Source of the DNA: Eledone cirrhosa
Taxonomy: Eukaryota
Assembly (NCBI GenBank): GCA_964016885.1
Contig: OZ024740.1
Coordinates: forward strand, 341,310,001-341,374,000
Reading direction: 5' to 3'
DNA: 64,000 nucleotides
Shown here: one piece after another, positions 1 through 54,820 of the stretch
Numbering within the stretch: the first letter of the stretch is position 1
Layout of the letters: every line of letters begins with the position of its first letter
Notes under the pieces: generated by a model
The model's database searches: none
What the model was told of the DNA's origin: nothing
Seen by the model: only the letters and a program-made list of their open reading frames with translations
Position numbers and translations under genes: made by a program

Positions 1-3000
1 TGAGCGCCTGAGCGCATTCAATGTGCCAGGTGCCCATCGTTTTCGGTCATTTCTTGACCCAGGACTGCAGCTCCGTCAGTGACACGAGCTGTGGGAAAGC
101 CTGTCTCACAAACGGTGCCCACACCGGTTGGGGGTCGGTGAGGAATACCTGGAGATGTCGGTGAGGAATACCTGGTGAGGTGTTCACGGGGACAAGGCAT
201 GACAGTCAAGCGGTAGTAGATGACGGACGCTATGAAAGTGTACGCCACCTCCGCTCGACTTTTCAAGGACAGTTTGCACTCTGCCCACTTCTGGGTGAGT
301 GCAAACACTTTGGCCGTGACCTCGTTTCAGTTTTTCTCCACCTGGAGGTCTGGACCGAACCAGACCCCGAGCAATTTCACCGGTCCGTCCGTCCAGCGTC
401 CAACGACGCTGTCGGACGTCATCGGTTTGCCTCTCCATGTACCGAGTTGCAAACTGACAGACTTGTCCGGGTTTAGTTTTGCTCCCGTCAGCGTTTCGTA
501 TTCTTTCAGTAAGTTGCCGATCACCCTGATTTCCGAGGTGCTCGGCACCATTACCGTCACGTCGGCATAAGCCGACACTGCTTTGCACAGTCCCGGTTCT
601 AGAGGGATGCCCTGCAACAGCTCCAATTTCCGCAGTAGTGGCTCTAGAGTCAATACATACAGAATGGAGGAAGAGAGAGGGCACCGCTGTCTAATGGAAC
701 GCGTAATTGCGAATGGCTCCAATAGGTAGCCGTTCACTTTGACCCTCAAGCAGATGCTGGTGTGCATTGCCTCGATCCAGCCTCTGAAAACGGGACCGAA
801 ACCGGCTGCCTTCAGAACCGCTTCCAAGTATCGATGGTCGATCCTATCGAATGCCTTAGACTGATCCAAATTGATCAGAGCCCCACCGAAGCCGGGTTTA
901 CTACCCACCCTCTCTATGATGTATCGCATGAGGTGGAGGTTGTCGTGTATGGATCTGGTCGGAATTGCACACGTTTGCGCTTTCCCTACCAGGTTCTTGA
1001 CGACAAGCACCAACCTCGTCGCTAGCACTTTGGCCAAAATCTTTAACTCTGTGTTGAGCAGAGTTATGGGCCTGAAGTTGTTAATTTTGTTCCCCTTGAT
1101 CTCGTCTTTCCTGATCAGCGTTACTACGCCCTTGCCTGCAGAACTGGGAATTCTCCCGTTCTGCTGCTAATTGCAGTAGACGGCTTCGAGGACGCCAGAG
1201 AACAAGTCCGGTATGCCTATGTAAAACTCATAGGGTAGACCATCTAGACCGGGTAACTTGCGTTTCCCGCAGCAGCACAGAGTGTCCTGTATCTCAGTGT
1301 CCATGATCGGTCTTTTGCAGAACTCGGCGTCCATGTTCGAGAGACGCGGCAGGCCGTTGAGGTATGTACTAAAGTCCATTGCCTCGTTCGGCTCACCGTC
1401 ATTCTGCTCAAACAGTCATGCAAAGTGCTGCTGAAAGGCCGCGCACATTTGCTTGTGGTCAAGTAGCACGCGTCCGTTTTGGTCTTTCAAAGACCGAATC
1501 GTGGACTTGTTGCCACTTTTCGCCTCCGCCACTCGGGCCCAGCTGACAGCTTTCGCTCCTTCGTTTCCTAGAGCACGTGTTTTGCTTCTGACCACGCAGC
1601 CTTCATGTTTTGCATCGAAGAACTGGTCCAGTTCCGTTCTCAACGCTAACACTCTAGCCGCGTTGCCACTGCTAAGTGCCTCCTCTACCTTGGCTACTAG
1701 TTCTCTTTCTATTTTGTTTTTCTCTAAGGCTAACTCTCTGCTAAACCCTATCGATTCTATTCTAATTGCTTTCTTGAGAGAGTACCACCATTTATTGTTG
1801 ACGATGGCTCCCGTTAACTGTTGCTTGACTAGTCTACTTATCCGTTCACTGTAAGCTTTACGTGCCGGGAATGACACGTTCAGCTTCCAGTATCCAGGTC
1901 CTTGTCTATGTGTTCTATCATGGTTGACTCAGCAGACGACTAATTTGTGATCTGAATAGGCAACCATGTGCCTTCGTGGACAGCTTAACATTTCCTTGTC
2001 TCTTTCTCTAATGAAGAACCTATCTAAATACGATCTAGATGTCCCGCTGCGGTTTGCTCACGTCCAGTGTGGTGCAGTCGATACCTATCGGCCAGTTGGA
2101 ATTGGCCGATTAAAGTTTTGAGGCTGTTGTCACCCCCCACTCTACTGGGACATGCTCCCACATAGTCCCATCGTGCATCTAGAATACCATTCCGTCCCCC
2201 ACTAAAATTAAGGAGCGAGACGTTCCTAGTTAAAGAAGTCTGGCCATGATTGCGATTGCCCGGTTGGGGCATAAACGGCCACCAGTCTGAAGGCTCCACC
2301 TCCAATACTGTTCACATCTAGGACTACCAGTCTACCCTCCGGGTCCAAGTGTACTTGCTGTACCTCGACGTCCAGGTTCTTCCAAAACATGACAGCCACT
2401 CCCCCTCCACCTCCTGGCTGACAGAGATGCATAGATCTCAAAGTCGTCGAAGATGGGGGTTAGTTGCTGCCTGTTGTGGATCCTGGACTCGGTGATGGCT
2501 ATCACATCCATACTGTGTGACCTAAGGTTGTTTAAAAGTTGGCCCTCTTTCCAGAGCATCCCTAGGCCATGCCCATTCACGCTTCCAACTCGTAAACTAG
2601 CCAATGTTGGTGAAGAAGAGTTGGAGAAAAAGGACGAAAGGTGCACTTACCTTTTCGTTTCCTGGAGATCGGGTTGTTCAATCTCAATTTGGGTGCTGGA
2701 TGGGGTGTTGGGTGGGGTGGGGTAACATTTTAACAGGACACGGTTGATGGGTTTCTGGCAGGGGTTGCCCACGTCCTGTGAAATATTTATTTTTCAGGTC
2801 ATTATAGGTTTCCATAGAAACCCTTATAAGTTTAAGGTGTGGAGACGATTCTGCCTTGACGAAAGTTTTGCCCTCCGTCTCCACCTTGGGGTTTTGGGAG
2901 ATGACCTCCATCAAACTCTTGTTATTTGTGTTGATGTATGTGTATTGTTGTTTGTGTTTTTGTTGTGTTGTTTTAGTTTGTTGTTCATCCGGGAGTTTTC

Positions 3001-6776: not shown

Positions 6777-6808
<32 letters not shown>

Positions 6809-6863
6809 GTATATTTTTTAATATAAGGGATTGTTTCTTTGTTTTTATTCATTATTTTTATTA

Positions 6864-6919
<56 letters not shown>

Positions 6920-7218
6920 AAACAAAATGAAAACGAAATTTCATCTCTCACTCTTAGTATGGCACTTACTTAAATGTAAGTATGCATGTATACGTACATA
7001 CATATATGTATACAGACGTACAGTAGCATGCACATATATATATATATATATATACATATATACATACATATGCATACAGGTACACATACATATATGCACG
7101 TATCAGTTTAGCGGCGCTAACGTCGCTTTGTTCGTTTGTAAACAAACTGAACAGCCTGAATTTATGCCATACGGTGTTAAGGCAACCACGTCACCTTTTT
7201 GTTCAACACTGACACAGG

Positions 7219-7263
7219 AACGATGTACTAGTTTCAAGCTTGTTAGCTATCATCAGCACCGTT
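7219..7263 (-). ncRNA. Minimal type I hammerhead ribozyme (array unit 1)
   Basis: Minus strand: AACGGUG CUGAUGA U-AGCU-AACA-AGCU-U GAAA CUAG UA^ CAUCGUU. 7-bp stem I, canonical core, palindromic stem III ACUAGU, GUA cleavage triplet. Confidence 0.85.
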
Positions 7264-7688
7264 TACCCATCTGCCAGATAGTTGAACGTTCGAAAGTATA
7301 TACTTTCCTTATGAAAATTAACGGCTGAGCAGCCTAATTTGCATATTGAGTGAGTTAAATCGGTCAGGCATACCGAAAACGATAAATTGAAACAAAATGA
7401 AAACGAAATTTCATCTCTCACTCTTAGTATGGCACTTACTTAAATGTAAGTATGCATGTATACGTACATACATATATGTATACAGACGTACAGTAGCATG
7501 CACATATATATATATATATATATACATATATACATACATATGCATACAGGTACACATACATATATGCACGTATCAGTTTAGCGGCGCTAACGTCGCTTTG
7601 TTCGTTTGTAAACAAACTGAACAGCCTGAATTTATGCCATACGGTGTTAAGGCAACCACGTCACCTTTTTGTTCAACACTGACACAGG

Positions 7689-7733
7689 AACGATGTACTA
7701 GTTTCAAGCTTGTTAGCTATCATCAGCACCGTT
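7689..7733 (-). ncRNA. Minimal type I hammerhead ribozyme (array unit 2)
   Basis: Identical to 7219-7263. Confidence 0.85.
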
Positions 7734-8158
7734 TACCCATCTGCCAGATAGTTGAACGTTCGAAAGTATATACTTTCCTTATGAAAATTAACGGCTGAGC
7801 AGCCTAATTTGCATATTGAGTGAGTTAAATCGGTCAGGCATACCGAAAACGATAAATTGAAACAAAATGAAAACGAAATTTCATCTCTCACTCTTAGTAT
7901 GGCACTTACTTAAATGTAAGTATGCATGTATACGTACATACATATATGTATACAGACGTACAGTAGCATGCACATATATATATATATATATATACATATA
8001 TACATACATATGCATACAGGTACACATACATATATGCACGTATCAGTTTAGCGGCGCTAACGTCGCTTTGTTCGTTTGTAAACAAACTGAACAGCCTGAA
8101 TTTATGCCATACGGTGTTAAGGCAACCACGTCACCTTTTTGTTCAACACTGACACAGG

Positions 8159-8203
8159 AACGATGTACTAGTTTCAAGCTTGTTAGCTATCATCAGCACC
8201 GTT
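8159..8203 (-). ncRNA. Minimal type I hammerhead ribozyme (array unit 3)
   Basis: Identical to 7219-7263. Confidence 0.85.
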
Positions 8204-8628
8204 TACCCATCTGCCAGATAGTTGAACGTTCGAAAGTATATACTTTCCTTATGAAAATTAACGGCTGAGCAGCCTAATTTGCATATTGAGTGAGTTAAAT
8301 CGGTCAGGCATACCGAAAACGATAAATTGAAACAAAATGAAAACGAAATTTCATCTCTCACTCTTAGTATGGCACTTACTTAAATGTGAGTATGCATGTA
8401 TACGTACATACATATATGTATACAGACGTACAGTAGCATGCACATATATATATATATATATATACATATATACATACATATGCATACAGGTACACATACA
8501 TATATGCACGTATCAGTTTAGCGGCGCTAACGTCGCTTTGTTCGTTTGTAAACAAACTGAACAGCCTGAATTTATGCCATACGGTGTTAAGGCAACCACG
8601 TCACCTTTTTGTTCAACACTGACACAGG

Positions 8629-8673
8629 AACGATGTACTAGTTTCAAGCTTGTTAGCTATCATCAGCACCGTT
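8629..8673 (-). ncRNA. Minimal type I hammerhead ribozyme (array unit 4)
   Basis: Identical to 7219-7263. Confidence 0.85.
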
Positions 8674-8797
8674 TACCCATCTGCCAGATAGTTGAACGTT
8701 CGAAAGTATATACTTTCCTTATGAAAATTAACGGCTGAGCAGCCTAATTTGCATATTGAGTGAGTTAAATCGGTACATATATATATATATATATATA

Positions 8798-9298: not shown

Positions 9299-9315
9299 TG
9301 GTGACCCGAACGTGA
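9299..9315 (+). promoter_or_regulatory. Primer binding site, tRNA-Trp-like
   Basis: TGGTGACCCGAACGTGA directly after the LTR end; close to the complement of the tRNA-Trp 3' end (TGGTGACCCCGACGTGA). Confidence 0.75.
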
Positions 9316-9355
9316 GTCGAACGCGCAACCAGACAGCACCTAAGAAAATATCAAC

Positions 9356-11533
9356 ATGGACATGTCACAAACGACAGAGGCAGAGATTTCAGAGCTGCGG
9401 GCTATGATCAGAGAGCGGGCTGGTCAAATTGAAGCCCTCTCGAATCAAGTAGAGAACTTGACCTTTCAAACACACCGGCGACGCAGCAACAGTCGATCCA
9501 GGCCTGTTCACAGTCAAAGATCCAGTAGTCCCAGTCAAAATCGTGCGCCTGGCAACCTCTGCTGGTATCACACAAATTTCGGCGCACAGGCATCTAAGTG
9601 CAAATCCCCGTGCTCTTTCCGGAATGCCACCCAGGGCCTGGCGACGACGTTCACCCCTGGTACTGAAAAGAAAAGTCGTTTATTTTTTATTAACGACCAG
9701 GCGACAGGCATCCGTTACCTCGTGGATACAGGAGCCCAAGTTAGTGTTATTCCGGTTTCACTAATCTCGGGCAAAAGACACCCAACCCCGTCCTTTCTGC
9801 AGGCAGTGAACCAATCGTCAATTCCGACTTTTGGGGAGAAGTCTCTGACCCTTAATTTAGGCCTGAGGCGGCGTTTTCAATGGGTGTTCGTCGTGGCAGA
9901 CCTGCCGACCCCTATCCTAGGAGCCGATTTTTTCCACCACTTCAACCTTCTGGTGGATATGAAGAACCGGAGGCTTATTGACACCACCACAAACCTCACT
10001 GTGAGAAGTATATTTACCATGCAATCCACAGTGAGCCCTGTAATTTGCCAGTCAGAGCCTTCGCGGTACAGCGGCATTCTCCAGAAATACCCAGACACCA
10101 CTCGCCCGGTATTTAAGGATGGTCCTATTAAGCATAGTGTCACGCACCACATCGAGACAAAGGGACCACCCACAGCTGCCCGACCAAGGAGACTGCCTCC
10201 AGACCGATTGAGAATCACCAAGCAGGAGTTCCAACACATGGTGAACCTCAGAATCATTCGCCCTTCCTCCAGCAACTGGTCTGCACCCCTACACCTTGTT
10301 CCCCCCCAAAAAACGAGAATGATTGGCGACCATGTGGGGATTATCGTGCACTTAACAATTCTACAGTGCCCGATAATTACCCTGTACCTCACCTGCAAGA
10401 TTTTTCTGCCTCTCTGCAAGGCGCACGCATCTTTTCCAAGGTAGATTTGGTGCGTGCATATAACCAGATACCTATGGAGCCTGCAGACATTCCGAAAACC
10501 GCAATCACAACACCGTTCGGTTTATTCGAATTCCTGCGAATGCCGTTCGGTCTGCGCAACGCTGCACAAACTTTTCAGCGGTTTATTGACACCGTGTTAC
10601 GTGATCTACCCTTCTTATACGCGTATATTGACGACGTACTGGTAGCAAGTACTTCCGAGCATGAACACGAGAAGCACTTAGATCTCCTTTTCCAACGTTT
10701 GGCTGAGTACGGTATCATCATCAACCCCAGCAAGTGCCTTCTCGGCGTTCCTTCACTGTCCTTTCTCCTTTCTCGGGCACATCATCGATAAAGACGACAT
10801 TCGTCCACTTCCCGAGAAAGTAGAAGCTATCCGCAGTTTTCCCGCACCTACATCACTTTGGAAACTGCGTGAATTCCTCGGTCTGGTGAATTTTTATAGG
10901 CGGTTTATCCCTCATTGTTCCGACGCAGCCAGACTCCTCACGGACCTTTTTCGTAACCGGACTCGCAAAAACGAAGAGATCACTCTAAACGAGGAAGAAT
11001 TAACATCTTTTAACCGCCTGAAGGAAATGTTGGCAAACGCTTCCATGCTCGTTTTCCCCAGGTCTGGCGCTCCTCTTTCGCTGCTAGTGGACGCATCAGA
11101 CACGGGGATTGGAGGCGTTCTACAACAACATGTCGACGGCGTGTGGCAACCCTTATCCTTCTTTTCTAAGCGGTTGCAACCGGCAGAAACGAAATACAGT
11201 ACCTTTGGCCGCGAACTCTTGGCAACCTATCTTTCGGTTAAGCATTTTCGGCAGATGCTCGAAGGATCAGATTTCGTGATCTACACGGACCATAAATCAT
11301 TAATTTATGCGTTCCGTACCAAACCTGATCGACATTCACCGAGAGAACTCCGACACCTGGATTTTGTCTCCCAATACTCAACTGATATTCGGCATATCAA
11401 GGGATCAGACAACGTAGCAGCCGACGCCCTGTCCCGAATCAGATCGCAGCTGACCAATAGACTGACGAAGAGTTTATCAAGCTCCGAGATTCGCCATTCC
11501 TCAAGTTTCAGCAAGTTCCCATTCCTTCTTCTG
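9356..11533 (+). pseudogene. Gypsy gag(partial)-protease-RT-RNase H, frameshifted, truncated before integrase
   Basis: CWYHTNFGAQASKCKSPC (Gag C-terminus), LVDTGAQVSVI (protease), [23 protein letters not shown] and YIDD (RT), VDAS...RELLA...TDH...ADALSR (RNase H); frameshifts near 10300 and 10770. Confidence 0.95.
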
Positions 11534-11558
11534 ATATATATATATAGGAACCAGTAAG

Positions 11559-11652
11559 ACCCCGACGGCTGAGCTCAAGCCGTTTCGACGGCTAATTTTG
11601 GACTAAATGAAAATTTATCCTGGTATTTAAATAGCCGAGCTTCTCAAGGGGT
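11559..11652 (-). ncRNA. Type I hammerhead ribozyme, U3-A8 core variant, in the Penelope 3' pseudo-LTR
   Basis: ACCCC UUGAGAA [G..CGGCUA...UAGCCG.C] GAA ACGGCU..AGCCGU C^ GGGGU. 5-bp stem I, extended stem II, 6-bp stem III, GUC triplet; same strand as the ORF. Confidence 0.85.
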
Positions 11653-12793
11653 AATTCCATATATGGTCAAAGTGATTGTCACAAGGATTGGTCACAAGTT
11701 AGTAGTAATTCTGTGATGGCAAATTAGTGGGGTAAGGGGTAGCTAAACCTGCCAGTAGGAGAAAAAGGGGAGGGGTGGAGTAGACCCATTCATGCGTTGG
11801 TGGTGCCGGCTACAGCTGGGCGTGAGGTCAAAGAAGATACTAGGGAGGGGGAGGGGGAGGAAGTCGAAACGGTAAGTAGAACAATGAAGGGTAAAAATAT
11901 ACTGAGAGTGAAGCGAATAAATGTAAAGAAAAGAAAAAAATAAGCAATTTCTACGACCTAAGTCTCTCGCTATTGCTAGGCTAAATAAATAAATAAATAA
12001 ATAAATAAATGAATAAATAGATAAAGAAATAAAAAAATAATAAATAAATAAACTAGGTGGGACGGAATAGGAAAGGACCCTTTTAAGAGGTATAAGTACG
12101 TATATCATACAGTGACGGGTCAACAAAGGGGGAGGGGGGGGGCAAAATACTAAAGAAACTACCACGAAATAATTAATAAAGGTTTCTATCCCGGGCACAA
12201 GGCCAGCAACCACCCAGTGCAGAAAAGTAAACTAGTACGAAATAATAATTCAGAGTCCCGAAAAAAATATACTAATGCTAACTCTAAGGATACCGCCACG
12301 CTACAAAAGTTCTTATACAAGCTACATGAAAGTTTGTACGAAGTAAAAGTAGAATACGGAAAATTAATTCAGAATCCACCCCGCCCAAAAGAAAAGAGAA
12401 GAAAAGAAAGAAAAACTGAATAAACGAGAAACAAAGCAGAGATGCCACTAAGAAATATAGAAGGTACGGAAAAAAGGGGGAGCGGTCGGATAAGGGGGCA
12501 AGTATCCGAGGTCTAACACAACTGCTATAGAAAGCGGAGTCCGCCAAATCTAACATAGACTAGGGGAGGGGGTGGGGGTACTGAGGCTACAAGGGGCCGA
12601 GGGGCTACCTCGGGTGGGCGAGAAAAAGACGCCGACAAAGAAAAAGAACTGGGGTAGAAGGACTAGGGAGGGATGGGGGAAGAAGGAAATATAGAGGAAG
12701 CGATAAAAGAATATAAAAGAAGATCTTACGTCTCCCTTGGCAAGCAGGGGTTACCCATTACAAAATTGGCAAGTGGGGTGTTATAGCCCTAGT

Positions 12794-13765
12794 CTACCCC
12801 CGCGGGTCATTATGGGGTTTGAGGGCGAGGTAAGTCCTACGCAATCTGTGTTTACATGCAGTAACCAGTTCATCTTTCTTGTTTAGGAGTTGGTCCGTCG
12901 AAAACAGCATTTGTAAAGTTTCCTCCGAGCATAAATTGCACGGACGGCGTCCTCCCGTGTAAGAGTTGGCTCTGGACAGTAATCTCCAAGTGAGATCATA
13001 GGTGATGTTGTTGTCCTTGAGGTGCCATATGTGGCCCGAAAGTGTAGTGGCGTGACGCCGGGCCGGGTTTTGGAAGGTATGTCTGTGTTGGTATAGCCGG
13101 GTCTTGAAGTCACATGCGGTTAATCCTATATAAGTTTTGTTGGAGGTGTCCGTCCACACGTTGCACTGGTAGATCACATTACGGTCTCTGCATCTGTTGT
13201 CGAGGAGGCAAATGGATCTATCAGGACAGTTGCACCTCCTGGTCGGCTCTCCACTGCTATTTAGGTTATTTCTTCCATCGGGGTTGAGTTTTTTGTTGTT
13301 GGAGGAGGCGATGTTTTGTGCGAAGTTTGGTGTAGTGCTGTAAGAGAGTTTGATGGTATTTTTGTTAATTATGTTGTGGTAGCGGTGTTGTAGTGGGAGG
13401 TGTTTTTCAATGAGCCTAAAGAATATTTTCCCGATGGGAGTTGTCACCTCTGCGTTGTGGGGAGGATTGAACCATGTTACATTGCGTGAGCGGCGATGTC
13501 ACCTGCTGGTTCCGCTAATGGGAGCTGGACAGTAGGATATTTCCTCCCGGAAACCACTCCGCTTGCGGGCCTGATTGTAATAAGGCGCATATTCATCGAA
13601 TATCTGCTCATTAGCTGACAAACGGGATATGCGGAGGGAGATGTTTTTGACCAGGTTGTTGGTGATGTTCCTAGGATGGTTTGAATGGCGGTGGATGTAG
13701 TGCAGGTTGTCATTAGGTTTCCTGTATGGGTAGTACAGGTCGTTTTCGAGGTCGAGGGTAACGTC
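12794..13765 (-). pseudogene. Penelope RT C-terminus + Cys-rich linker + GIY-YIG endonuclease (one in-frame TGA at 13501-13499)
   Basis: DVTLDL..YYPYRKPN..YIH..SNHP; TWFNPP; CNCPDRSICLLDNRC; VIY...YIG...R..QH; CNLCSEE. Confidence 0.9.
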
Positions 13766-14485
13766 TGAATTAATTTTCCGTATTCTACTTTTACTTCGTA
13801 CGAACTTTCATGTAGCTTGTATAAGAACTTTTGTAGCGTGGCGGTATCCTTAGAGTTAGCATTAGTATATTTTTTTCGGGACTCTGAATTATTATTTCGT
13901 ACGAGTTTACTTTTCTGCACTGGGTGGTTGCTGGCCTTGTGCCCGGGGTAAAAACCTTTATTAATTATTTCGTGGTAGTTTCTTTAGTATTTTGCCCCCC
14001 CCCCCCCCCTTTGTTGACCCGTCACTGTATGATATACGTACTTATACCTCTTAAAAGGGTCCTTTCCTATTCCGTCCCACCTAGTTTATTTATTTATTAT
14101 TTTTTTTATTTCTTTATCTATTTATTCATTTATTTATTTATTTATTTATTTATTTAGCCTAGCAATAGCGAGAGACTTAGGTCGTAGAAATTGCTTATTT
14201 TTTTCTTTTCTTTACATTTATTCGCTTCACTCTCAGTATATTTTTACCCTTCATTGTTCTACTTACCGTTTCGACTTCCTCCCCCTCCCCCTCCCTAGTA
14301 TCTTCTTTGACCTCACGCCCAGCTGTAGCCGGCACCACCAACGCATGAATGGGTCTACTCCACCCCTCCCCATTTTCTCCTACTGGCAGGTTTAGCTACC
14401 CCTTACCCCACTAATTTGCCATCACAGAATTACTACTAACTTGTGACCAATCCTTGTGACAATCACTTTGACCATATATGGAATT

Positions 14486-14579
14486 ACCCCTTGAGAAGCT
14501 CGGCTATTTAATTACCAGGATAAATTTTCATTTAGTCCAGAATTAGCCGTCGAATCGGCTTGAGCTCAGCCGTCGGGGT
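14486..14579 (+). ncRNA. Hammerhead copy in the inverted arm, core mutated (GAAA>GAAU)
   Basis: Same fold as 11559-11652 but A15.1 is replaced by U (cgaatcggc). Confidence 0.7.
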
Positions 14580-14670
14580 CTTACTGGTTCCTATTACCCA
14601 CTCTACTACCCTAAGTATTGAGTACTTTGGTGCGTTATGGTCCACCTGGTTCCTTACCACATTTTCTTCG

Positions 14671-14746
<76 letters not shown>

Positions 14747-17899: not shown

Positions 17900-17958
17900 T
17901 TTTATTATACATATTTCAGAGGTACTATGGTGTTTAAGTACGTTTTCATCAGACAAAA
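17900..17958 (-). ncRNA. Minimal hammerhead, diverged copy of the 29.2-29.4 kb family
   Basis: UUUUGU CUGAUGA ..GUACU..AGUAC.. GAAA UAUGUAUA^ AUAAAA; flanks 17880-18020 resemble 29175-29320. Confidence 0.65.
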
Positions 17959-47683: not shown

Positions 47684-50600
47684 TTAAATGTCCTTAATTT
47701 TCGAGATAATATCTCTTCTTCGGAGGGAAGTAAAAGTCTCAGACCACCGTCTTAAATTTCCAATGAAGCCATGCATGGATAACAAGGTGTCGAGATGTTT
47801 CTTAAAGACATCCACCTCCACGTCATGCAAGTCTCGCAGATGCCTCGGCAGCCTGTTGAAGAGTTGAGGGCCCTTGAATCCCAGGCTATTGCAATACCTG
47901 CTCCTTATTCTAGATGTGGAAGACGGGACCTTTGGCACCACACAGTGACGTCCTGTTCGACGGTTGGTCCAGCTCCCAATGCCAAAGTTTGGTGCTAGTC
48001 CCTCCAGGATTTTCCACATGTAGATCACTGCGTATCTCTCCTGTCTTCGCTCCAAGGAGTAGAGGTTCAGTTCCTTTAGCCTCTCCCAGTAGCTTGTCTC
48101 CCTCATCTTGGCAATCCTCTTGGTGTAGCTTCGCTGGATTGCCTCAAGCTCCGTGGTTAGTTTGACACTATGGGGTGACCACAGCTGGGAGCAGTAGTCC
48201 AGGCGGCTTAGGACAAAAGTCCTCCACAGTGTCAACATGGTGTCTCGATCTCTTGTACGGAAAGTCCTCAAGATCCAGCCAGCGAATCGTCTACATGTTC
48301 TCGCCACCTTCATGATGTGTGAAGAAAAAGATGCATCATCGCTCATGTCTATGCCCAGGTCTCGTATCGATTTTGACACGGGGATATCGGTCCCTCCTGG
48401 TCCTGTGTAGCTGTGTTCCGCTATATTTGTGTTTGTGTTTGCAGGTTTGTATTGTAGGGCTTGGAATTTGCCAGCATTAAACTGCATGTTGTTTTCTTCC
48501 GCCCATCTGTATATGGCATCCAGATCCTGCTGTAAGAGGGCAGCGTCAGCCGGGTTTTTGATTGCCTGTGCTACCTTAGTGTCATCAGCATAGCTAGTGA
48601 GGGATGTTGTTGCATGCACCACAGAGGGCATGTCCGAGAGAGCCACCAAAAACAGTAGTGGTCCCAGGACTGTCCCCTGGGGCATCCCACTTGTTATCGG
48701 TGTTTCCCTCGAGAGGGCCCCATTTGCTGTGACTGCCTGGCTTCTGTCCCTTAGGAAGCCATGCAGCCACTCACCTACTTTTCCAGTTATGCCGAGTCCG
48801 TGTAGTTTGTGACATATCATTCCGTGGTCGACCTTGTCAAAGGCCTTCGCAAAGTCAAGATATATCACGTCTACATGTGAGCTGTCTAGTAGTTGTCTCA
48901 GTACCCAGTCGTAGTGATGTAGCAGCTGTGTAAGGCAGCTTCTTCCTGGGCGGAAGCCATGTTGCGTGCTAGTCAGGCGGTCATTTTCTTCGAGGAAAGT
49001 GATTAGTTTCTTTCTGACGACTCGCTCCATGACCTTACTGATATGCGACGTCAGAGAGACTGGCCTATAGTTCTTGGCCTCCGCTCTACTACCTCCTTTA
49101 TGGATAGGGCATATTGTGCCTTCTTTCAGCTCCCTGGGTAGTACACCGCTAGCCAAGGAGCTTCTGAAGAGCATCTTCAGTGGAGTTGCTAAGGCCCGCT
49201 TACATATTTTTAGGAGAACTGCTGGGAATCCATCAGGTCCAGCAGCCGAGTCTGTTCTAATTTCATCAATGGCGTACACCACATCCTCCTCCGTTATGTC
49301 TATGTGGTTGATGGTTGCCATTTCTTGATGTAGTGTTGTGGCATCAAAGAACTCCTCTGGCTTCGTTATTTGCATGTGCCTCAGTGGACATGTGAAGACA
49401 CTTTTGTACTGTTCGTTCAGTATTTCACATATCTCTTGGGGATTTTCGGTTAATGAACCGTCCGTGTGGAAGAGTGGTCCAATCTTGCAGTGTACTGTGG
49501 CAGTTTCTCTTGCAAATTTAAAGAAGGCCTTAGGGTTTGTTTTAATGTTTTCTATGGCCCTGTTCTCTTTCTTTGCCCTCTCATTCTCATGTGAAAGTTT
49601 GAGTGCAATCTCGGTGTCAAGTAGTGCACGTTTCAAATAGGATTCCTTCTTGTTTTGGTTTTGTTGACTATTCAACTGGTTTGAGAGTTTAGTTCTACGT
49701 CTCATAAGGATTTTCCTATCTCTGGGAATAAGATTTTTGTGTCTGTTTGCCTCTTTCTCCGGGACACACTTTTTGCATATGGTGTGTATCGTTGTCATGA
49801 AGTGTTGAAATTGTGTGTTAGTGTCTTGTGTGGCGATGTTTTCACTCCATGTTTGCTTCCGGATTTCACTCTTAATCTTTTTCCAGTTAGCCTTGTAGAA
49901 GTTAAGGTTGGATAGCGTCCCGGAGCTTCTTGGTGGTTTTGTCTCTGTTGGTTCTCTTGGACCACATATCATTAGCTCTACTAAGTTATGATCCGAGAGA
50001 ATTGTTGGTGTCACCTTTACATTGTGGATGAGCACTTCGTTGTTTGTAAAACAGAGGTCCAGGACATTTTCGCCTCTTGTTGGGAGGAGTATTGCTTGCT
50101 CCATGAACAGCCTGTGTGTGAGGGCCAGCAGGGATTCCGTCTGTCTCTGTTCTATTGACGTCATTCCAGGGAGGAGGTGGCCCTCAGGCCATTTGTCCTT
50201 TGGTAGGTTGAAGTCTCCCAGCAGTAGGATGTTGAGACCCTGGTCCAGTTTGTCAAGGACCTCTTCTATCCTACTTAGGCTATCCTCAAATTTACCCTCA
50301 TGACTGGGGGCATCGGGCGGCCGATATGTGACACATATTACCGTCTGTAGTTGCTTCATATGTATTATCAGTGTGTCACAGACTGAGTTTGAATATGTCA
50401 ACAGTACAATTGGTGTGACATCTTCACGGATATACAGAGCAACCCCACCATGAGTTCTCTCCTTCCTGTCTGAACGAAATACAGTATATTTCGGTATATG
50501 TATTTCTGCATCTGCTATACTGCTTGTCAGGTGTGTTTCGGTTAGTGCCATGCATAGTGCTTGATTGCTTATGGCTAAGTCTCCCAGGTAGGAAATTTTA

Positions 50601-50716
50601 CTCATGTTGCTGAGTTTCACCAGGCCCCTGACATTCAGCAGCAGCACTGGTGTGACTTTTGGGGTGCCAGTAATGGCTGTCGGTATGACACCTGGTCTGG
50701 TGTCAACGGCGGCCAC
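47684..50716 (-). CDS. CR1 LINE ORF2 (APE endonuclease + RT), open for 1010 aa; the last ~30 aa read through a 3' truncation at ~47776
   Basis: LLNVRGL, ALTETHL, YRPP, LGDFNLP, LDL, SDH; GPDG, YRPVSL, QHGFR, YLDFAKAFDKV, PQGTVLGP, YADD. Confidence 0.92.
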   Translation of the reverse strand: MAAVDTRPGVIPTAITGTPKVTPVLLLNVRGLVKLSNMSKISYLGDLAISNQALCMALTETHLTSSIADAEIHIPKYTVFRSDRKERTHGGVALYIREDVTPIVLLTYSNSVCDTLIIHMKQLQTVICVTYRPPDAPSHEGKFEDSLSRIEEVLDKLDQGLNILLLGDFNLPKDKWPEGHLLPGMTSIEQRQTESLLALTHRLFMEQAILLPTRGENVLDLCFTNNEVLIHNVKVTPTILSDHNLVELMICGPREPTETKPPRSSGTLSNLNFYKANWKKIKSEIRKQTWSENIATQDTNTQFQHFMTTIHTICKKCVPEKEANRHKNLIPRDRKILMRRRTKLSNQLNSQQNQNKKESYLKRALLDTEIALKLSHENERAKKENRAIENIKTNPKAFFKFARETATVHCKIGPLFHTDGSLTENPQEICEILNEQYKSVFTCPLRHMQITKPEEFFDATTLHQEMATINHIDITEEDVVYAIDEIRTDSAAGPDGFPAVLLKICKRALATPLKMLFRSSLASGVLPRELKEGTICPIHKGGSRAEAKNYRPVSLTSHISKVMERVVRKKLITFLEENDRLTSTQHGFRPGRSCLTQLLHHYDWVLRQLLDSSHVDVIYLDFAKAFDKVDHGMICHKLHGLGITGKVGEWLHGFLRDRSQAVTANGALSRETPITSGMPQGTVLGPLLFLVALSDMPSVVHATTSLTSYADDTKVAQAIKNPADAALLQQDLDAIYRWAEENNMQFNAGKFQALQYKPANTNTNIAEHSYTGPGGTDIPVSKSIRDLGIDMSDDASFSSHIMKVARTCRRFAGWILRTFRTRDRDTMLTLWRTFVLSRLDYCSQLWSPHSVKLTTELEAIQRSYTKRIAKMRETSYWERLKELNLYSLERRQERYAVIYMWKILEGLAPNFGIGSWTNRRTGRHCVVPKVPSSTSRIRSRYCNSLGFKGPQLFNRLPRHLRDLHDVEVDVFKKHLDTLLSMHGFIGNLRRWSETFTSLRRRDIISKIKDI

Positions 50717-51218
50717 TCTGGGTCCCTTAACTGCGGTGGTCTCGAGTGCTGGTGTGGATGACCCTGGCTCTGGAGACGATGCAGCCAGGTCAGCTGTCCC
50801 ACAATCTTCTCTGCCATCACTAAAAAATTTTTCTGATCTGCTGCTGCCATCTGTATCTCATCGGCATGTGCGTGCCTTCTCCTTGTTGGTGCAGCACGCG
50901 CGACATCAGCATACTTCTGGAGCGGCTTTTTTCGGCTTTGGCTGGGGCATGTTGCGCGAGTATGATGGGCATAGTTCGTTTGAGACCTAGGGTGGGCGAA
51001 TCTGCATCCCATCCCTGTCTCTCCATGCCAGCATGTCCCGTTCTTGAAAAACTTGCACATTACTTGGGGTTTTTTGCTCCCAGTGTCTCGGTGCTTTCTG
51101 TTCTTTCTTTGAACAGTTGTCCACTGGTCCCTCTGCGCTTGGTTCTCCTTCGGAAGGTGATTTCGCTTTTCACCCTTGCCCTTAGCTTGTTGGTTGCCCG
51201 GCCTGCCCTCCCTGCCTG
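50635..51218 (-). pseudogene. CR1 ORF1 C-terminal part with CCCH zinc finger, cut by an RTE tail
   Basis: CKFFKNGTCWHGETGMGCRFAH; stop at 51062-51060; overlaps the ORF2 start. Confidence 0.65.
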
Positions 51219-52640: not shown

Positions 52641-53897
52641 ATCATCATCATCATCATCATCAACGTTTAACGTCCGTGTTCCACGCTTGCATGGGTTTGG
52701 ACGGGGGTAGTCCCACTTGAGGCAAGAGTGATTGTCTTGCTCGCATAGGACTGTCTGGCAGGTTTTCTACAGTTGGATGCCCTTCCTAACACCAACCACA
52801 TTTACAGTGTGGGTCTGGGAGGTTTTTACCGTGTTGCCTACACGGCCACATTACAGCGTGGACTGTGTGTTTTTTTGTCGTGACACCTACACGATCTCAT
52901 TTGTTTCGGCCTGGATGGCGCGGCACCAACATAACTTTACATAGAACGGGGTGGTGTGGATGGGGTGGGGGTGGTGGTGGTGGGACGGGGTGTATTTTGT
53001 TAGAGATGCCTACTGGCTGGAGTAGGTTTTACTATATATTTAGGTAAGGCGGGTCTTCTCTGTTACTGAGTACCGCCAAAGGTCTCGGTCCAGTGACATT
53101 ATCTTGGAGAGGTGTAAGTGTGTGATGTCGGAGTTTATCAGCTCGTCCCAGGTTTTTCTAGGTCTGCCTATTCCGTGACTACCGTCTATCTTTATTGCCC
53201 TGCACTTTGTTATACAGCTATCGACTTTCATGCGCATCACGTGTCCATACCAACGTAGCCTTCTCTCGAGTAAACAACATCTGATCCCTCTTATCTCTAA
53301 TTTTTTCCTTAGTTCGTTTATGCTTTGCCGTTCACGTATATTACTGTTACACATCCAGCGGAGCATGCAAGCTTCGTTCCTCTCTAGTCTGCGTATATCC
53401 TCTGCACACAATGCCCAGGTCTCACTGCCATGCAGCATTGCTGTTCGTATGCAGGCATCGTACAACCTGCCTTTCATTTTTAGTGAGAACCCTTTAGCAG
53501 CTAATAGTGGTATAAGCTCTCTGAACTTTTTCCAACCAGTTCTGACTCTAGCTACAGTACTTTCAGAGCACCCTCCCCCACTGCTGATTTTATCGCCCAG
53601 GTAACGGAAGCTGTCCACTATTTCTATAGAACCCTCTGCGCAATTGAAAGAGCTAGTAGTTTGTGGGCACTTGCTGCTACTTATTGCACCAGAGCACCGG
53701 CCACATGTAAAATCTATGTTCTTAGTTAGCTTACCTGTGATCCCACTACATCTTTTATGCACCCATACTTTGCATTTAGGACATAAAATGGAGTTTCTAC
53801 CTACGCCTTTCCTACACACCGAGCACGACCATTTCCCAGAAGGGACCGCCGCCTTGTTTTCTTTCCTACAAACTAGTACTTTGGTCTTAGCCAGGTT
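52641..53897 (-). mobile_element. RTE family B, 5'-truncated, inserted in the Penelope 3' region
   Basis: [25 protein letters not shown]; possible TSD TTAATAT at 52636 and 53896. Confidence 0.95.
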
Positions 53898-54820
53898 AAT
53901 ATAATTTAATTTAAATGTAGTTAACCTATAACTTTAATTTAATTAAAATTCTACTACAGATGAGATTAAAAAATATTGTGTAATCATAAATTGTGAAAAA
54001 CTTTAAAATATTATTAACATAATTAATATATACTTTGTAAATTAATTTATAGATTAATTTTAGTTTATTTAACCTTTTATTAAAATTCCTTTACAGATGA
54101 AATATAACAAAATATCGTGTAATCAATAACAGAGAAATATTTTTTAATATTATAAACCTAATTAATGTACAATTTAGAAATTTATTTATAAATTAATTTT
54201 AATTTAGTTAACATATAATTTTAATTTAATTAGCTTAAAATTAAAATTCTAATACAGATGGATTGCAGAATATCATGTAATCATAAACTGAGATAAACTT
54301 TTAAATATATACCTAATTAATATATTCTTTACAATTAAATATATATATATATATATTAATTTTAATTTTTGTTAACCTATAATTATATTCTACTATAGAT
54401 AAAATACAAAATCTGCTTTAATTATTATAAACCTAATTAACATATACTATAGAAATTAATATATAATTTTTAATTTAGTTAACCTATAATTTATATTCTA
54501 CTACCGATGAAATACTTGATTTGGTTTTCCCTATTACTAAATTCATTTCCTAAAATTGATACCATAATGTTAATATTTTTAATTTAGTTATGCTATAATT
54601 AATACTCTACTACTGTTTAACTTCAAAATTCCGCTTTAAATATTATAAACCTAAGTAGTATACACCTTAGAAATCAATATATTAACTATTTTTAATTTAG
54701 TTAACCTATAATTAATAGTCTACTTATATTAAAATGCATAATTTTGCCTTCTTTCTTACATTTCCTAATACTGAAACTACTATGTAAACACATATTATGA
54801 TCTAAATGCAGATTAATATT
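53898..54820 (+). repeat. Degenerate AT-rich tandem repeats derived from the 3' end of the Penelope ORF
   Basis: ATATCGTGTAATCATAAACTGAGA...TATTATAAACCTAATTAAT recurs, progressively decayed, at ~52563, 53972, 54112, 54270, 54420 and 54640. Confidence 0.7.

What the first reader, a model, noticed from the sequence alone, without database searches (positions are those of the whole stretch)
11559..11652. Penelope (Naiad-like) pseudo-LTR ends in a full-length U3-A8 hammerhead
Seen: ACCCC-UUGAGAA-[CGGCUA/UAGCCG plus inner hairpin]-GAA-ACGGCU..AGCCGU-C^GGGGU on the sense strand of the GIY-YIG ORF; the element ends about 18 nt after the predicted cut. Known: Penelope pseudo-LTRs carry HHRs that define transcript ends. 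Inference: the same uncommon core variant occurs here in an RT-bearing family and at 36.8/37.4 kb in an ORF-less repeat with unrelated stems. This suggests a lineage-wide U3-A8 hammerhead class and a possible helper/parasite pair.
Basis: partly seen in the sequence, partly recalled or inferred. Interest (0 to 1): 0.82.

Follow-up and report, generated by a model that had tools for sequence, protein, structure and literature searches.

The report
Jumping-gene ribozyme with fossil core mutations
A jumping gene in this animal genome ends in a known variant of a self-cutting RNA motif, and its thousands of copies preserve a series of changes in the motif's catalytic core, including about 1,600 copies with a mismatch that would be expected to cripple cutting, which suggests the element likely spreads without needing to cut its RNA.

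Summary
The U3-A8 type I hammerhead is real (minus strand, 11652-11559), but the host is not Naiad-like. It has a C-terminal GIY-YIG domain and the Hydra-clade motifs. U3-A8 in Penelope hammerheads is published, and earlier notes of this scan found this family and the 591-bp retrozyme on other DNA. U3-A8 is not lineage-wide: canonical cores are about twice as common here. Insertions end 20 or 100 nt past the predicted cut, one end per arm (21 of 21 classifiable two-armed loci), so the ends look like reverse-transcription starts, not cut sites. The new part is the core history. Family copies number 5,074 U3-A8, 1,588 C3·A8 mismatch, 35 U3·G8 and 8 C3-G8. Trees and copy ages suggest the order U3·G8, U3-A8, C3·A8 through several subfamilies, then U3-A8 again; the root is uncertain. 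Insertion geometry stayed the same throughout. A sister family reached 26,438 copies with a U4A core. Cleavage therefore looks dispensable for spreading, though the fold is kept. No cleavage or RNA data were available. The retrozyme shares Hydra-type start hairpins but no sequence with this family, so its helper is unassigned.

The parts
11559..11652 (-). Type I hammerhead fold: U3-A8 core, long branched stem II, palindromic stem III, C17 at 11564
   Evidence: folds
11641..11647 (-). Core UUGAGAA (U3 U4 G5 A6 G7 A8 A9)
11544..11563 (-). Short 3' tail (+17 element-specific, +20 with TAT shared with the target)
11534..11546 (.). (TA)n target remnant at the left end
11653..12793 (-). 3' UTR / pseudo-LTR body, 84% identical to an intact young copy
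12794..13765 (-). 5'-truncated ORF remnant: RT thumb, linker with CxCX5C, C-terminal GIY-YIG with CxxC and CxH; one in-frame stop at about 13500
13764..14674 (+). Inverted second arm (3' part of the same element), ending in (TA)n
14486..14579 (+). Second hammerhead copy, U3-A8, with A15.1 changed to U
14575..14674 (+). Long 3' tail (+100), containing the first RCTC..GAGY start hairpin
36529..37724 (-). Two-unit array of the 591-bp ORF-less retrozyme (family B)
36768..36853 (-). Family B hammerhead, U3-A8 core UUGAUAA
37358..37443 (-). Family B hammerhead, second unit

Best explanation
The motif is a U3-A8 hammerhead fold at the 3' end of a Hydra-type Penelope-like retroelement whose insertions end 20 or 100 bases past the predicted cut, and self-cleavage is likely weak, likely needs two copies, and is likely not required for the element to spread. 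Shown: the unit is 3,531 bp with a 717-aa RT plus C-terminal GIY-YIG frame. Insertions go into (TA)n, and two-armed insertions pair one +20 end with one +100 end, each just upstream of an RCTC..GAGY hairpin. Inferred: the protein cuts both strands in (TA)n and starts reverse transcription inside an uncut RNA at those two hairpin-marked sites, as reported in vitro for a Poseidon element. Shown: the family holds four states of the 3-8 core pair. Inferred order in time: U3·G8, U3-A8, C3·A8 through several successive subfamilies, then U3-A8 again. Ends and tails did not change during the mismatch phase. The fold is probably kept for RNA handling or for a modest benefit from cleavage, enough to favour return of the pair. 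The 591-bp repeat is probably a retrozyme moved by some Hydra-type enzyme, not shown to be this family's.
For: Ends: of 94 copies, 40 end at +20 to +23, 32 at +96 to +103, 19 run into the next unit, 2 end at +53 and 1 is cut by the locus edge (this search needed bases past the cut). 0 of 38 pattern-picked copies end at the cut. Of 23 two-armed loci, 21 have one short and one long arm and 2 were unclassifiable; four of the 21 are C3·A8 insertions. Run X1 shows loose (TA)n ends at +19 and +99. Core counts are 5,074 / 1,588 / 35 / 8; background is 12 C3 variants against 7,286 in family B. DNA trees with positions 3, 7 and 8 masked put C3·A8 rows between two U3-A8 groups. The AU test rejects one U3-A8 clade (p 0.005 and 0.033). 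Within-subfamily divergence falls from 0.146 (U3·G8) to 0.05-0.08 (C3·A8) to 0.002 (youngest). Sister family E has 26,438 CAGANGA against 908 CTGANGA matches. In a pairwise mutant scan, all C3/G8 changes except the G:C swap had low activity (PMC9901934 passages). Hammerhead mutants did not impair insertion by a Poseidon element in vitro (PMC11167929).
Against: No cleavage assay or RNA-end data exist for any variant. The pair was restored, and the hammerhead block is more conserved than the upstream UTR (0.8-0.9 against 0.6-0.7 identity), which points to selection on it. The youngest subfamily is predicted to fold into the active monomer best (P 0.47-0.57 against 0.01-0.03 for the window type), although a 450-nt context abolished this. 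Protein outgroups gave unstable roots (against 118), so the direction rests on copy ages. One U3-A8 side branch (divergence 0.058) overlapped the mismatch phase in time and could have cut in trans. The dimer preference is not exceptional: 8 of 100 shuffles did as well. RNAfold does not recover family E's hammerhead, which I read by hand. Patterns fixed the other core bases, so subfamilies with other changes are missed.
Confidence: 0.6

Rival explanations
1. Cleavage is needed and never stopped: the C3·A8 core stays active, either in a shifted register (G7 pairing with C3, no N7) or through a C·A wobble stabilised by the long stem II or by the protein.
For: Position 7 is G in 94 of the 100 listed C3·A8 copies but is G, U, A or C among U3-A8 subfamilies. 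The Poseidon hammerhead needs its protein to cleave. The fold stayed conserved.
Against: The constant G7 may simply be inherited by one lineage: the U3-A8 rows directly flanking the mismatch grade also have G7. Backbone changes at A6-N7 are reported as harmful (PMC3088659 section 8). Insertion ends do not coincide with the cut.
Confidence: 0.2
2. Mismatch-core RNAs were cut in trans by contemporaneous U3-A8 RNAs through the palindromic stem III dimer, so the family as a whole always had cleavage.
For: The cofold minimum for two copies is a double hammerhead with exchanged strands. A U3-A8 side branch overlaps the mismatch phase in age.
Against: It needs two rare transcripts to meet. The mismatch lineage, not the intact side branch, left the descendants. 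It does not explain family E, where 97% of matches are U4A.
Confidence: 0.08
3. One reading: the hammerhead sets transcript ends, U3-A8 marks a lineage-wide class, and this family is the specific helper of the 591-bp repeat.
For: Both young families have U3-A8, (TA)n targets, two-ended insertions and RCTC..GAGY hairpins. Among the three Hydra-type families sampled, only this one showed many identical intact frames, which matches the near-identical retrozyme copies.
Against: No A-B sequence similarity better than E 0.19. Start-site spacing is 80 nt against 165 nt. The hairpins are shared by families C and E too. Canonical cores outnumber U3-A8. The retrozyme lineage has old U3-A8 relatives at 63-66% identity and shows no mismatch phase, so the two cores have separate histories.
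Confidence: 0.12

Closest known systems
Hydra clade of C-terminal EN+ Penelope-like elements, e.g. Hydra-1_Obim, Hydra-2_Amil (Craig et al. 2021, PMC8557442; passages, section 11 and supplement part 2 plus passages read)
   Same: Single ORF with C-terminal GIY-YIG, DKT, CxCX5C, CxxC and CxH, no CCHH; (TA)n target; 3' hammerhead; inverted 5'-truncated arms.
   Different: Unit is 3,531 bp (they report generally under 3 kb). RWR instead of RWK. The hammerhead has U3-A8, a 54-nt stem II region and a 19-nt stem III. All Hydra rows in their File S2 have C3-G8 and short stems. Not the same family as Hydra-1_Obim (different hammerhead and N-terminus, compared by eye).
U3-A8 minimal hammerheads of Schistosoma mansoni Cercyon elements (Cervera and de la Pena 2014, PMC4209133; parts 1-2 of 4 read)
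   Same: Same core covariation in a Penelope pseudo-LTR (about 1,300 hits there); palindromic helix III and proposed dimer activity.
   Different: Theirs are minimal motifs; this one has a stable stem III and a decoy hairpin. The parts read describe no mismatch or wobble subfamilies.
PAc, Poseidon element of Anolis (Frangieh et al. 2024, PMC11167929; parts 1-2 of 4 read)
   Same: Two internal RT start sites give a genomic tail; both DNA strands are cut and extended; hammerhead mutants do not block insertion in vitro.
   Different: Different clade. Here the tail is 80 nt and lies in the 5' UTR, and the evidence is genomic rather than biochemical.
Animal non-LTR retrozymes (Cervera and de la Pena 2020, PMC7229834, passages; Li et al. 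2026, bioRxiv 10.64898/2026.07.22.740005, part 1 of 5 and passages)
   Same: The 591-bp repeat is ORF-less, tandem, carries one type I hammerhead per unit and co-occurs with Penelope elements.
   Different: Longer than the 170-400 nt RNAs quoted; U3-A8 core; no homology to the neighbouring family's pseudo-LTR.

Membership tests
Naiad | N-terminal GIY-YIG upstream of RT | tested here: not met
   The endonuclease follows the RT in intact copies
Naiad | No canonical-order hammerhead | tested here: not met
   Type I hammerhead present; Naiad trait
Hydra clade PLE | Single ORF, RT then C-terminal GIY-YIG | tested here: met
   717 aa; YRDDG and IY..YIG motifs read directly. Pfam and PDB gave no match
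Hydra clade PLE | DKT, CxCX5C, CxxC and CxH present; CCHH absent | tested here: met
   (loose CCHH pattern negative for this protein)
Hydra clade PLE | RWK motif | tested here: inconclusive
   RWR at the matching place
Hydra clade PLE | (TA)n insertion preference | tested here: met
Hydra clade PLE | Generally under 3 kb (a tendency, not a rule) | tested here: not met
   3,531-bp unit with a long 3' UTR
Hydra clade PLE | RT tree placement with named Hydra, Neptune, Poseidon and Naiad references | not testable with these tools
   Reference sequences were available only as printed text and were compared by eye. The tree has unnamed homologs only.
Hydra clade PLE | No IFD and no Naiad CxC domain | not tested
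   no alignment to Naiad RTs was made
Type I hammerhead ribozyme | Core plus stems I, II, III and H17 cleavage site | tested here: met
   the 3-8 pair is U-A
Type I hammerhead ribozyme | Active fold is the preferred fold | tested here: inconclusive
   Window monomer P about 0.007; young monomer 0.47; dimer minimum is the double hammerhead
Type I hammerhead ribozyme | Self-cleavage | not testable with these tools
   needs an assay
Non-LTR retrozyme (591-bp repeat) | ORF-less tandem units with one hammerhead each | tested here: met
   Longest ATG frame 75 codons; tandem arrays
Non-LTR retrozyme (591-bp repeat) | Expressed as circular RNA | not testable with these tools
   no RNA data laid on this repeat

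The most novel reading that the evidence does not exclude
This genome holds a datable fossil record of a ribozyme's catalytic base pair walking from C-G through a U·G wobble to U-A, into a C·A mismatch and back to U-A inside one retrotransposon lineage. The element kept multiplying with a dead ribozyme, and a sister family reached over 26,000 copies with another core lesion. Penelope hammerheads would then be optional passengers or structural handles, and the insertion ends would be set by twin start hairpins.
Probability: 0.42. Interest if true: 0.72.

Novelty: new variant of a known kind. Interest (0 to 1): 0.52.

Why it matters
What Penelope hammerheads do is an open question: Craig et al. 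2021 call their function unclear and raise the possibility that they are parasites of the element. The one direct test I read is in vitro and on a single element. Here natural alleles of one ribozyme (U3·G8, U3-A8, C3·A8) and a U4A sister core come with copy numbers, relative ages and unchanged insertion geometry. A few cleavage assays would therefore show whether cutting matters for spreading in a real genome. The series also appears to be a directly observed path of compensatory change in a catalytic RNA core, with both intermediates preserved. The U3-A8 motif alone, the clade and the retrozyme are known.

Tried and rejected
Pseudoknot between ACCAG in loop II and CUGGU after stem I: rejected, because the 3' partner changes across subfamilies while ACCAG stays. 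The 8 C3-G8 copies as an ancestral subfamily or as compensatory evidence: rejected, because they scatter among C3·A8 rows. Two independent gains of U3 from an ancestral C3·A8 state: favoured by the trees, then made less likely by the older U3·G8 subfamily; not excluded. Sequence homology between the retrozyme and families A or E: none found. No RNA holder listed for the family; contigs of two runs of unknown kind were laid. Rfam found no hammerhead. Pfam and PDB found nothing for the proteins. The pattern was mis-spaced for family B and was corrected. Monomer probabilities had an index error and were replaced; the dimer folds are unaffected. DNA around the closest database proteins (P0002, P0091) could not be fetched, so their hammerheads are unknown. 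Metagenome relatives that showed a clear hammerhead (6 of 8 loci) all had C3-G8. The kinetic papers on 3-8 exchanges (Przybilski and Hammann 2007, Nelson and Uhlenbeck 2008, Martick and Scott 2006, Lunse et al. 2017) were not held. Searches for a printed report of C3·A8 or wobble subfamilies found none, in a library that lacks most subscription journals. bioRxiv supplements were not seen.

Full report
Observation. The motif is present as described, on the minus strand at 11652-11559, with stem I, core UUGAGAA, G10.1-C11.1, GAAA, stem III and C17. A strict descriptor finds 5 motifs in the window against a mean of 0.05 in 40 shuffles. The insertion has two arms pointing outwards: a minus arm at 13765-11544 with a truncated ORF, and a plus arm at 13764-14674 with a second hammerhead in which A15.1 is U. 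Both arms end in (TA)n.

The element. The window lies in a 3.0-Gb genome. A protein search with the endonuclease part returned many identical 784-codon frames and head-to-tail arrays with a 3,531-bp period. An intact copy encodes 717 aa with the RT first and the GIY-YIG domain last. It has DKT, CxCX5C, CxxC and CxH and lacks CCHH. These are the Hydra-clade traits of Craig et al. 2021 (PMC8557442 section 11). Naiads have an N-terminal endonuclease and lack canonical hammerheads, so 'Naiad-like' is wrong. I could not run a tree with named references. A database search gave 2,049 homologs among 8,000 scored candidates, mostly about 700 aa at 38-43% identity among the 120 listed.

What is already known. 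U3-A8 is reported in about 1,300 Schistosoma Penelope hammerheads (PMC4209133) and as a natural, active covariation (PMC3088659). Retrozymes as non-autonomous Penelope partners are proposed in PMC7229834 and in bioRxiv 10.64898/2026.07.22.740005. All Hydra hammerheads in Craig's File S2 have C3-G8 and short stems, so a large U3-A8 form in this clade is a variant. Earlier notes of this scan had already reached Hydra, U3-A8, dimers, the retrozyme and start hairpins on other DNA. Word searches for a mismatch series returned nothing.

Ends. Of 94 family copies, 40 end at +20 to +23 past the predicted cut, 32 at +96 to +103, 19 run into the next unit, 2 end at +53 and 1 meets the locus edge. That search needed bases past the cut. 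Among 38 copies picked by a pattern that stops before stem III, none ends at the cut. Of 23 two-armed loci, 21 pair one short with one long end and 2 could not be classified. Contigs of run X1, which may be the assembly's own sample, show loose (TA)n ends at +19 and +99. An RCTC..GAGY hairpin begins 3-7 nt beyond both ends in families A, B and E and beyond the one family C end that could be tested; 2-4% of random positions would pass (lead from earlier notes). This matches the two internal RT starts and double-strand priming reported for a Poseidon element, whose hammerhead mutants still inserted in vitro (PMC11167929). I infer that the ends are RT starts on an uncut or circular RNA.

Fold. 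The window copy's monomer prefers a decoy hairpin that hides GAA (P active 0.007, P decoy 0.60). The youngest subfamily has two changes that make the hammerhead its minimum (P 0.47), though not in a 450-nt context. For the window copy, the young copy and family B, the two-copy minimum is a double hammerhead joined through the palindromic stem III. The energy gain alone is matched by 8 of 100 shuffles, and dimer action is the published rule for these motifs.

Core history. Exact patterns over the genome give family A 5,074 U3-A8, 1,588 C3·A8, 35 U3·G8 and 8 C3-G8, with reversed-pattern controls of 0. Family B gives the background: 12 C3 variants against 7,286. The C3·A8 copies therefore descend from source elements that had the mismatch; they share diagnostic loop sequences, and both arms of an insertion carry it. 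About 14 of the 35 U3·G8 copies form their own subfamily; the one frame recovered is 67% identical to the young protein. With positions 3, 7 and 8 masked, DNA trees place the C3·A8 rows as a grade between an older and a younger U3-A8 group (78 rows after thinning near-identical young rows, 59 rows, at most 5-8 per subfamily). Protein trees give the same unrooted order, and the AU test rejects a single U3-A8 clade (p 0.005; p 0.033 after dropping two long rows). The root is not settled. Distant outgroups attached at a basal polytomy with C3·A8 rows, and beside the youngest rows. Copy age gives the direction: mean within-subfamily divergence is 0.146 for U3·G8, 0.114 and 0.058 for the old U3-A8 groups (the first is mixed), 0.079, 0.072, 0.052 and 0.049 for C3·A8, and 0.027 to 0.002 for the young U3-A8 groups. 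The simplest series is C3-G8 (kept by families C and E), U3·G8, U3-A8, C3·A8, U3-A8. Short and long ends occur in every subfamily.

A second case. Family E, 51-54% identical to A and grouped with it at modest support, ends in a Hydra-style hammerhead layout whose core reads CAGAAGA in 33 of 35 matches. Genome-wide there are 26,438 CAGANGA against 908 CTGANGA matches. I read this fold by hand; RNAfold does not recover it. In a pairwise mutant scan of one hammerhead, every single and double change in this region except the G:C swap had low activity (PMC9901934 passages). That predicts poor cleavage for C3·A8 and U4A, and in that construct for U3-A8 too. Against full dispensability, the pair was restored and the hammerhead block is better conserved than the upstream UTR.

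Lineage-wide class and helper. Family C, another Hydra-type family, has short canonical hammerheads (8 of 30 loci). Its pattern gives 24,859 matches, some counted twice, and three such motifs lie in this window. U3-A8 is thus confined to family A and the B lineage among those sampled. Family B is a 591-bp ORF-less tandem unit; 11 of 27 distinct ends are at +80 to +85 and 15 at +243 to +250. Old relatives at 63-66% identity show paired changes in stems I, II and III. It has no similarity to family A beyond E 0.19. It is probably moved by a Hydra-type enzyme. Family A fits best by age, but this is not shown.

Verdict. The reported motif, clade and retrozyme are known kinds. The core-state series, with a long mismatch phase and unchanged insertion geometry, was not found in my searches (the library is incomplete). 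It turns an open question into a short set of assays. Interest 0.52; new variant of a known kind.

Noticed in passing
window 17902-17956 (-), 29199-29256 (-), 29376-29433 (+): Three short canonical C3-G8 hammerheads of family C type; the 29.2/29.4-kb pair is a small fold-back insertion.
   Followed up: partly
window about 9300-11533 (+): Ty3/Gypsy-type fragment (protease, RT, RNase H by Pfam) that stops at the (TA)n target; it does not visibly resume in the 700 bases after 14.7 kb.
   Followed up: partly
L050 (G000:C1:342066000-342075999): A copy of this same insertion, 100% identical over the 176-nt query, about 750 kb from the window; probably a segmental duplication or an assembly duplicate.
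   Followed up: no
L264-L283: Family E: Hydra-type, 713-codon frames, about 97% alike, ends at +25 and +114, hammerhead-like core with U4A in about 26,000 copies.
   Followed up: yes
L163-L165: Old relatives of the 591-bp repeat with an unbulged stem II and paired stem changes; only three found with the pattern used.
   Followed up: partly
L274:508 and L279 (-)959: Another large canonical hammerhead (CUGAUGA, about 90-nt stem II region) from an unrelated repeat, seen twice.
   Followed up: no
window 47684-50857 (-), 38687-39787 (-), 327-1166 (-), 53040-53933 (-): LINE-type frames, including a 1,057-codon endonuclease plus RT frame; read by eye only.
   Followed up: no
window about 6800-8740: Four near-identical 470-bp tandem units; no hammerhead found by my descriptor.
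   Followed up: no
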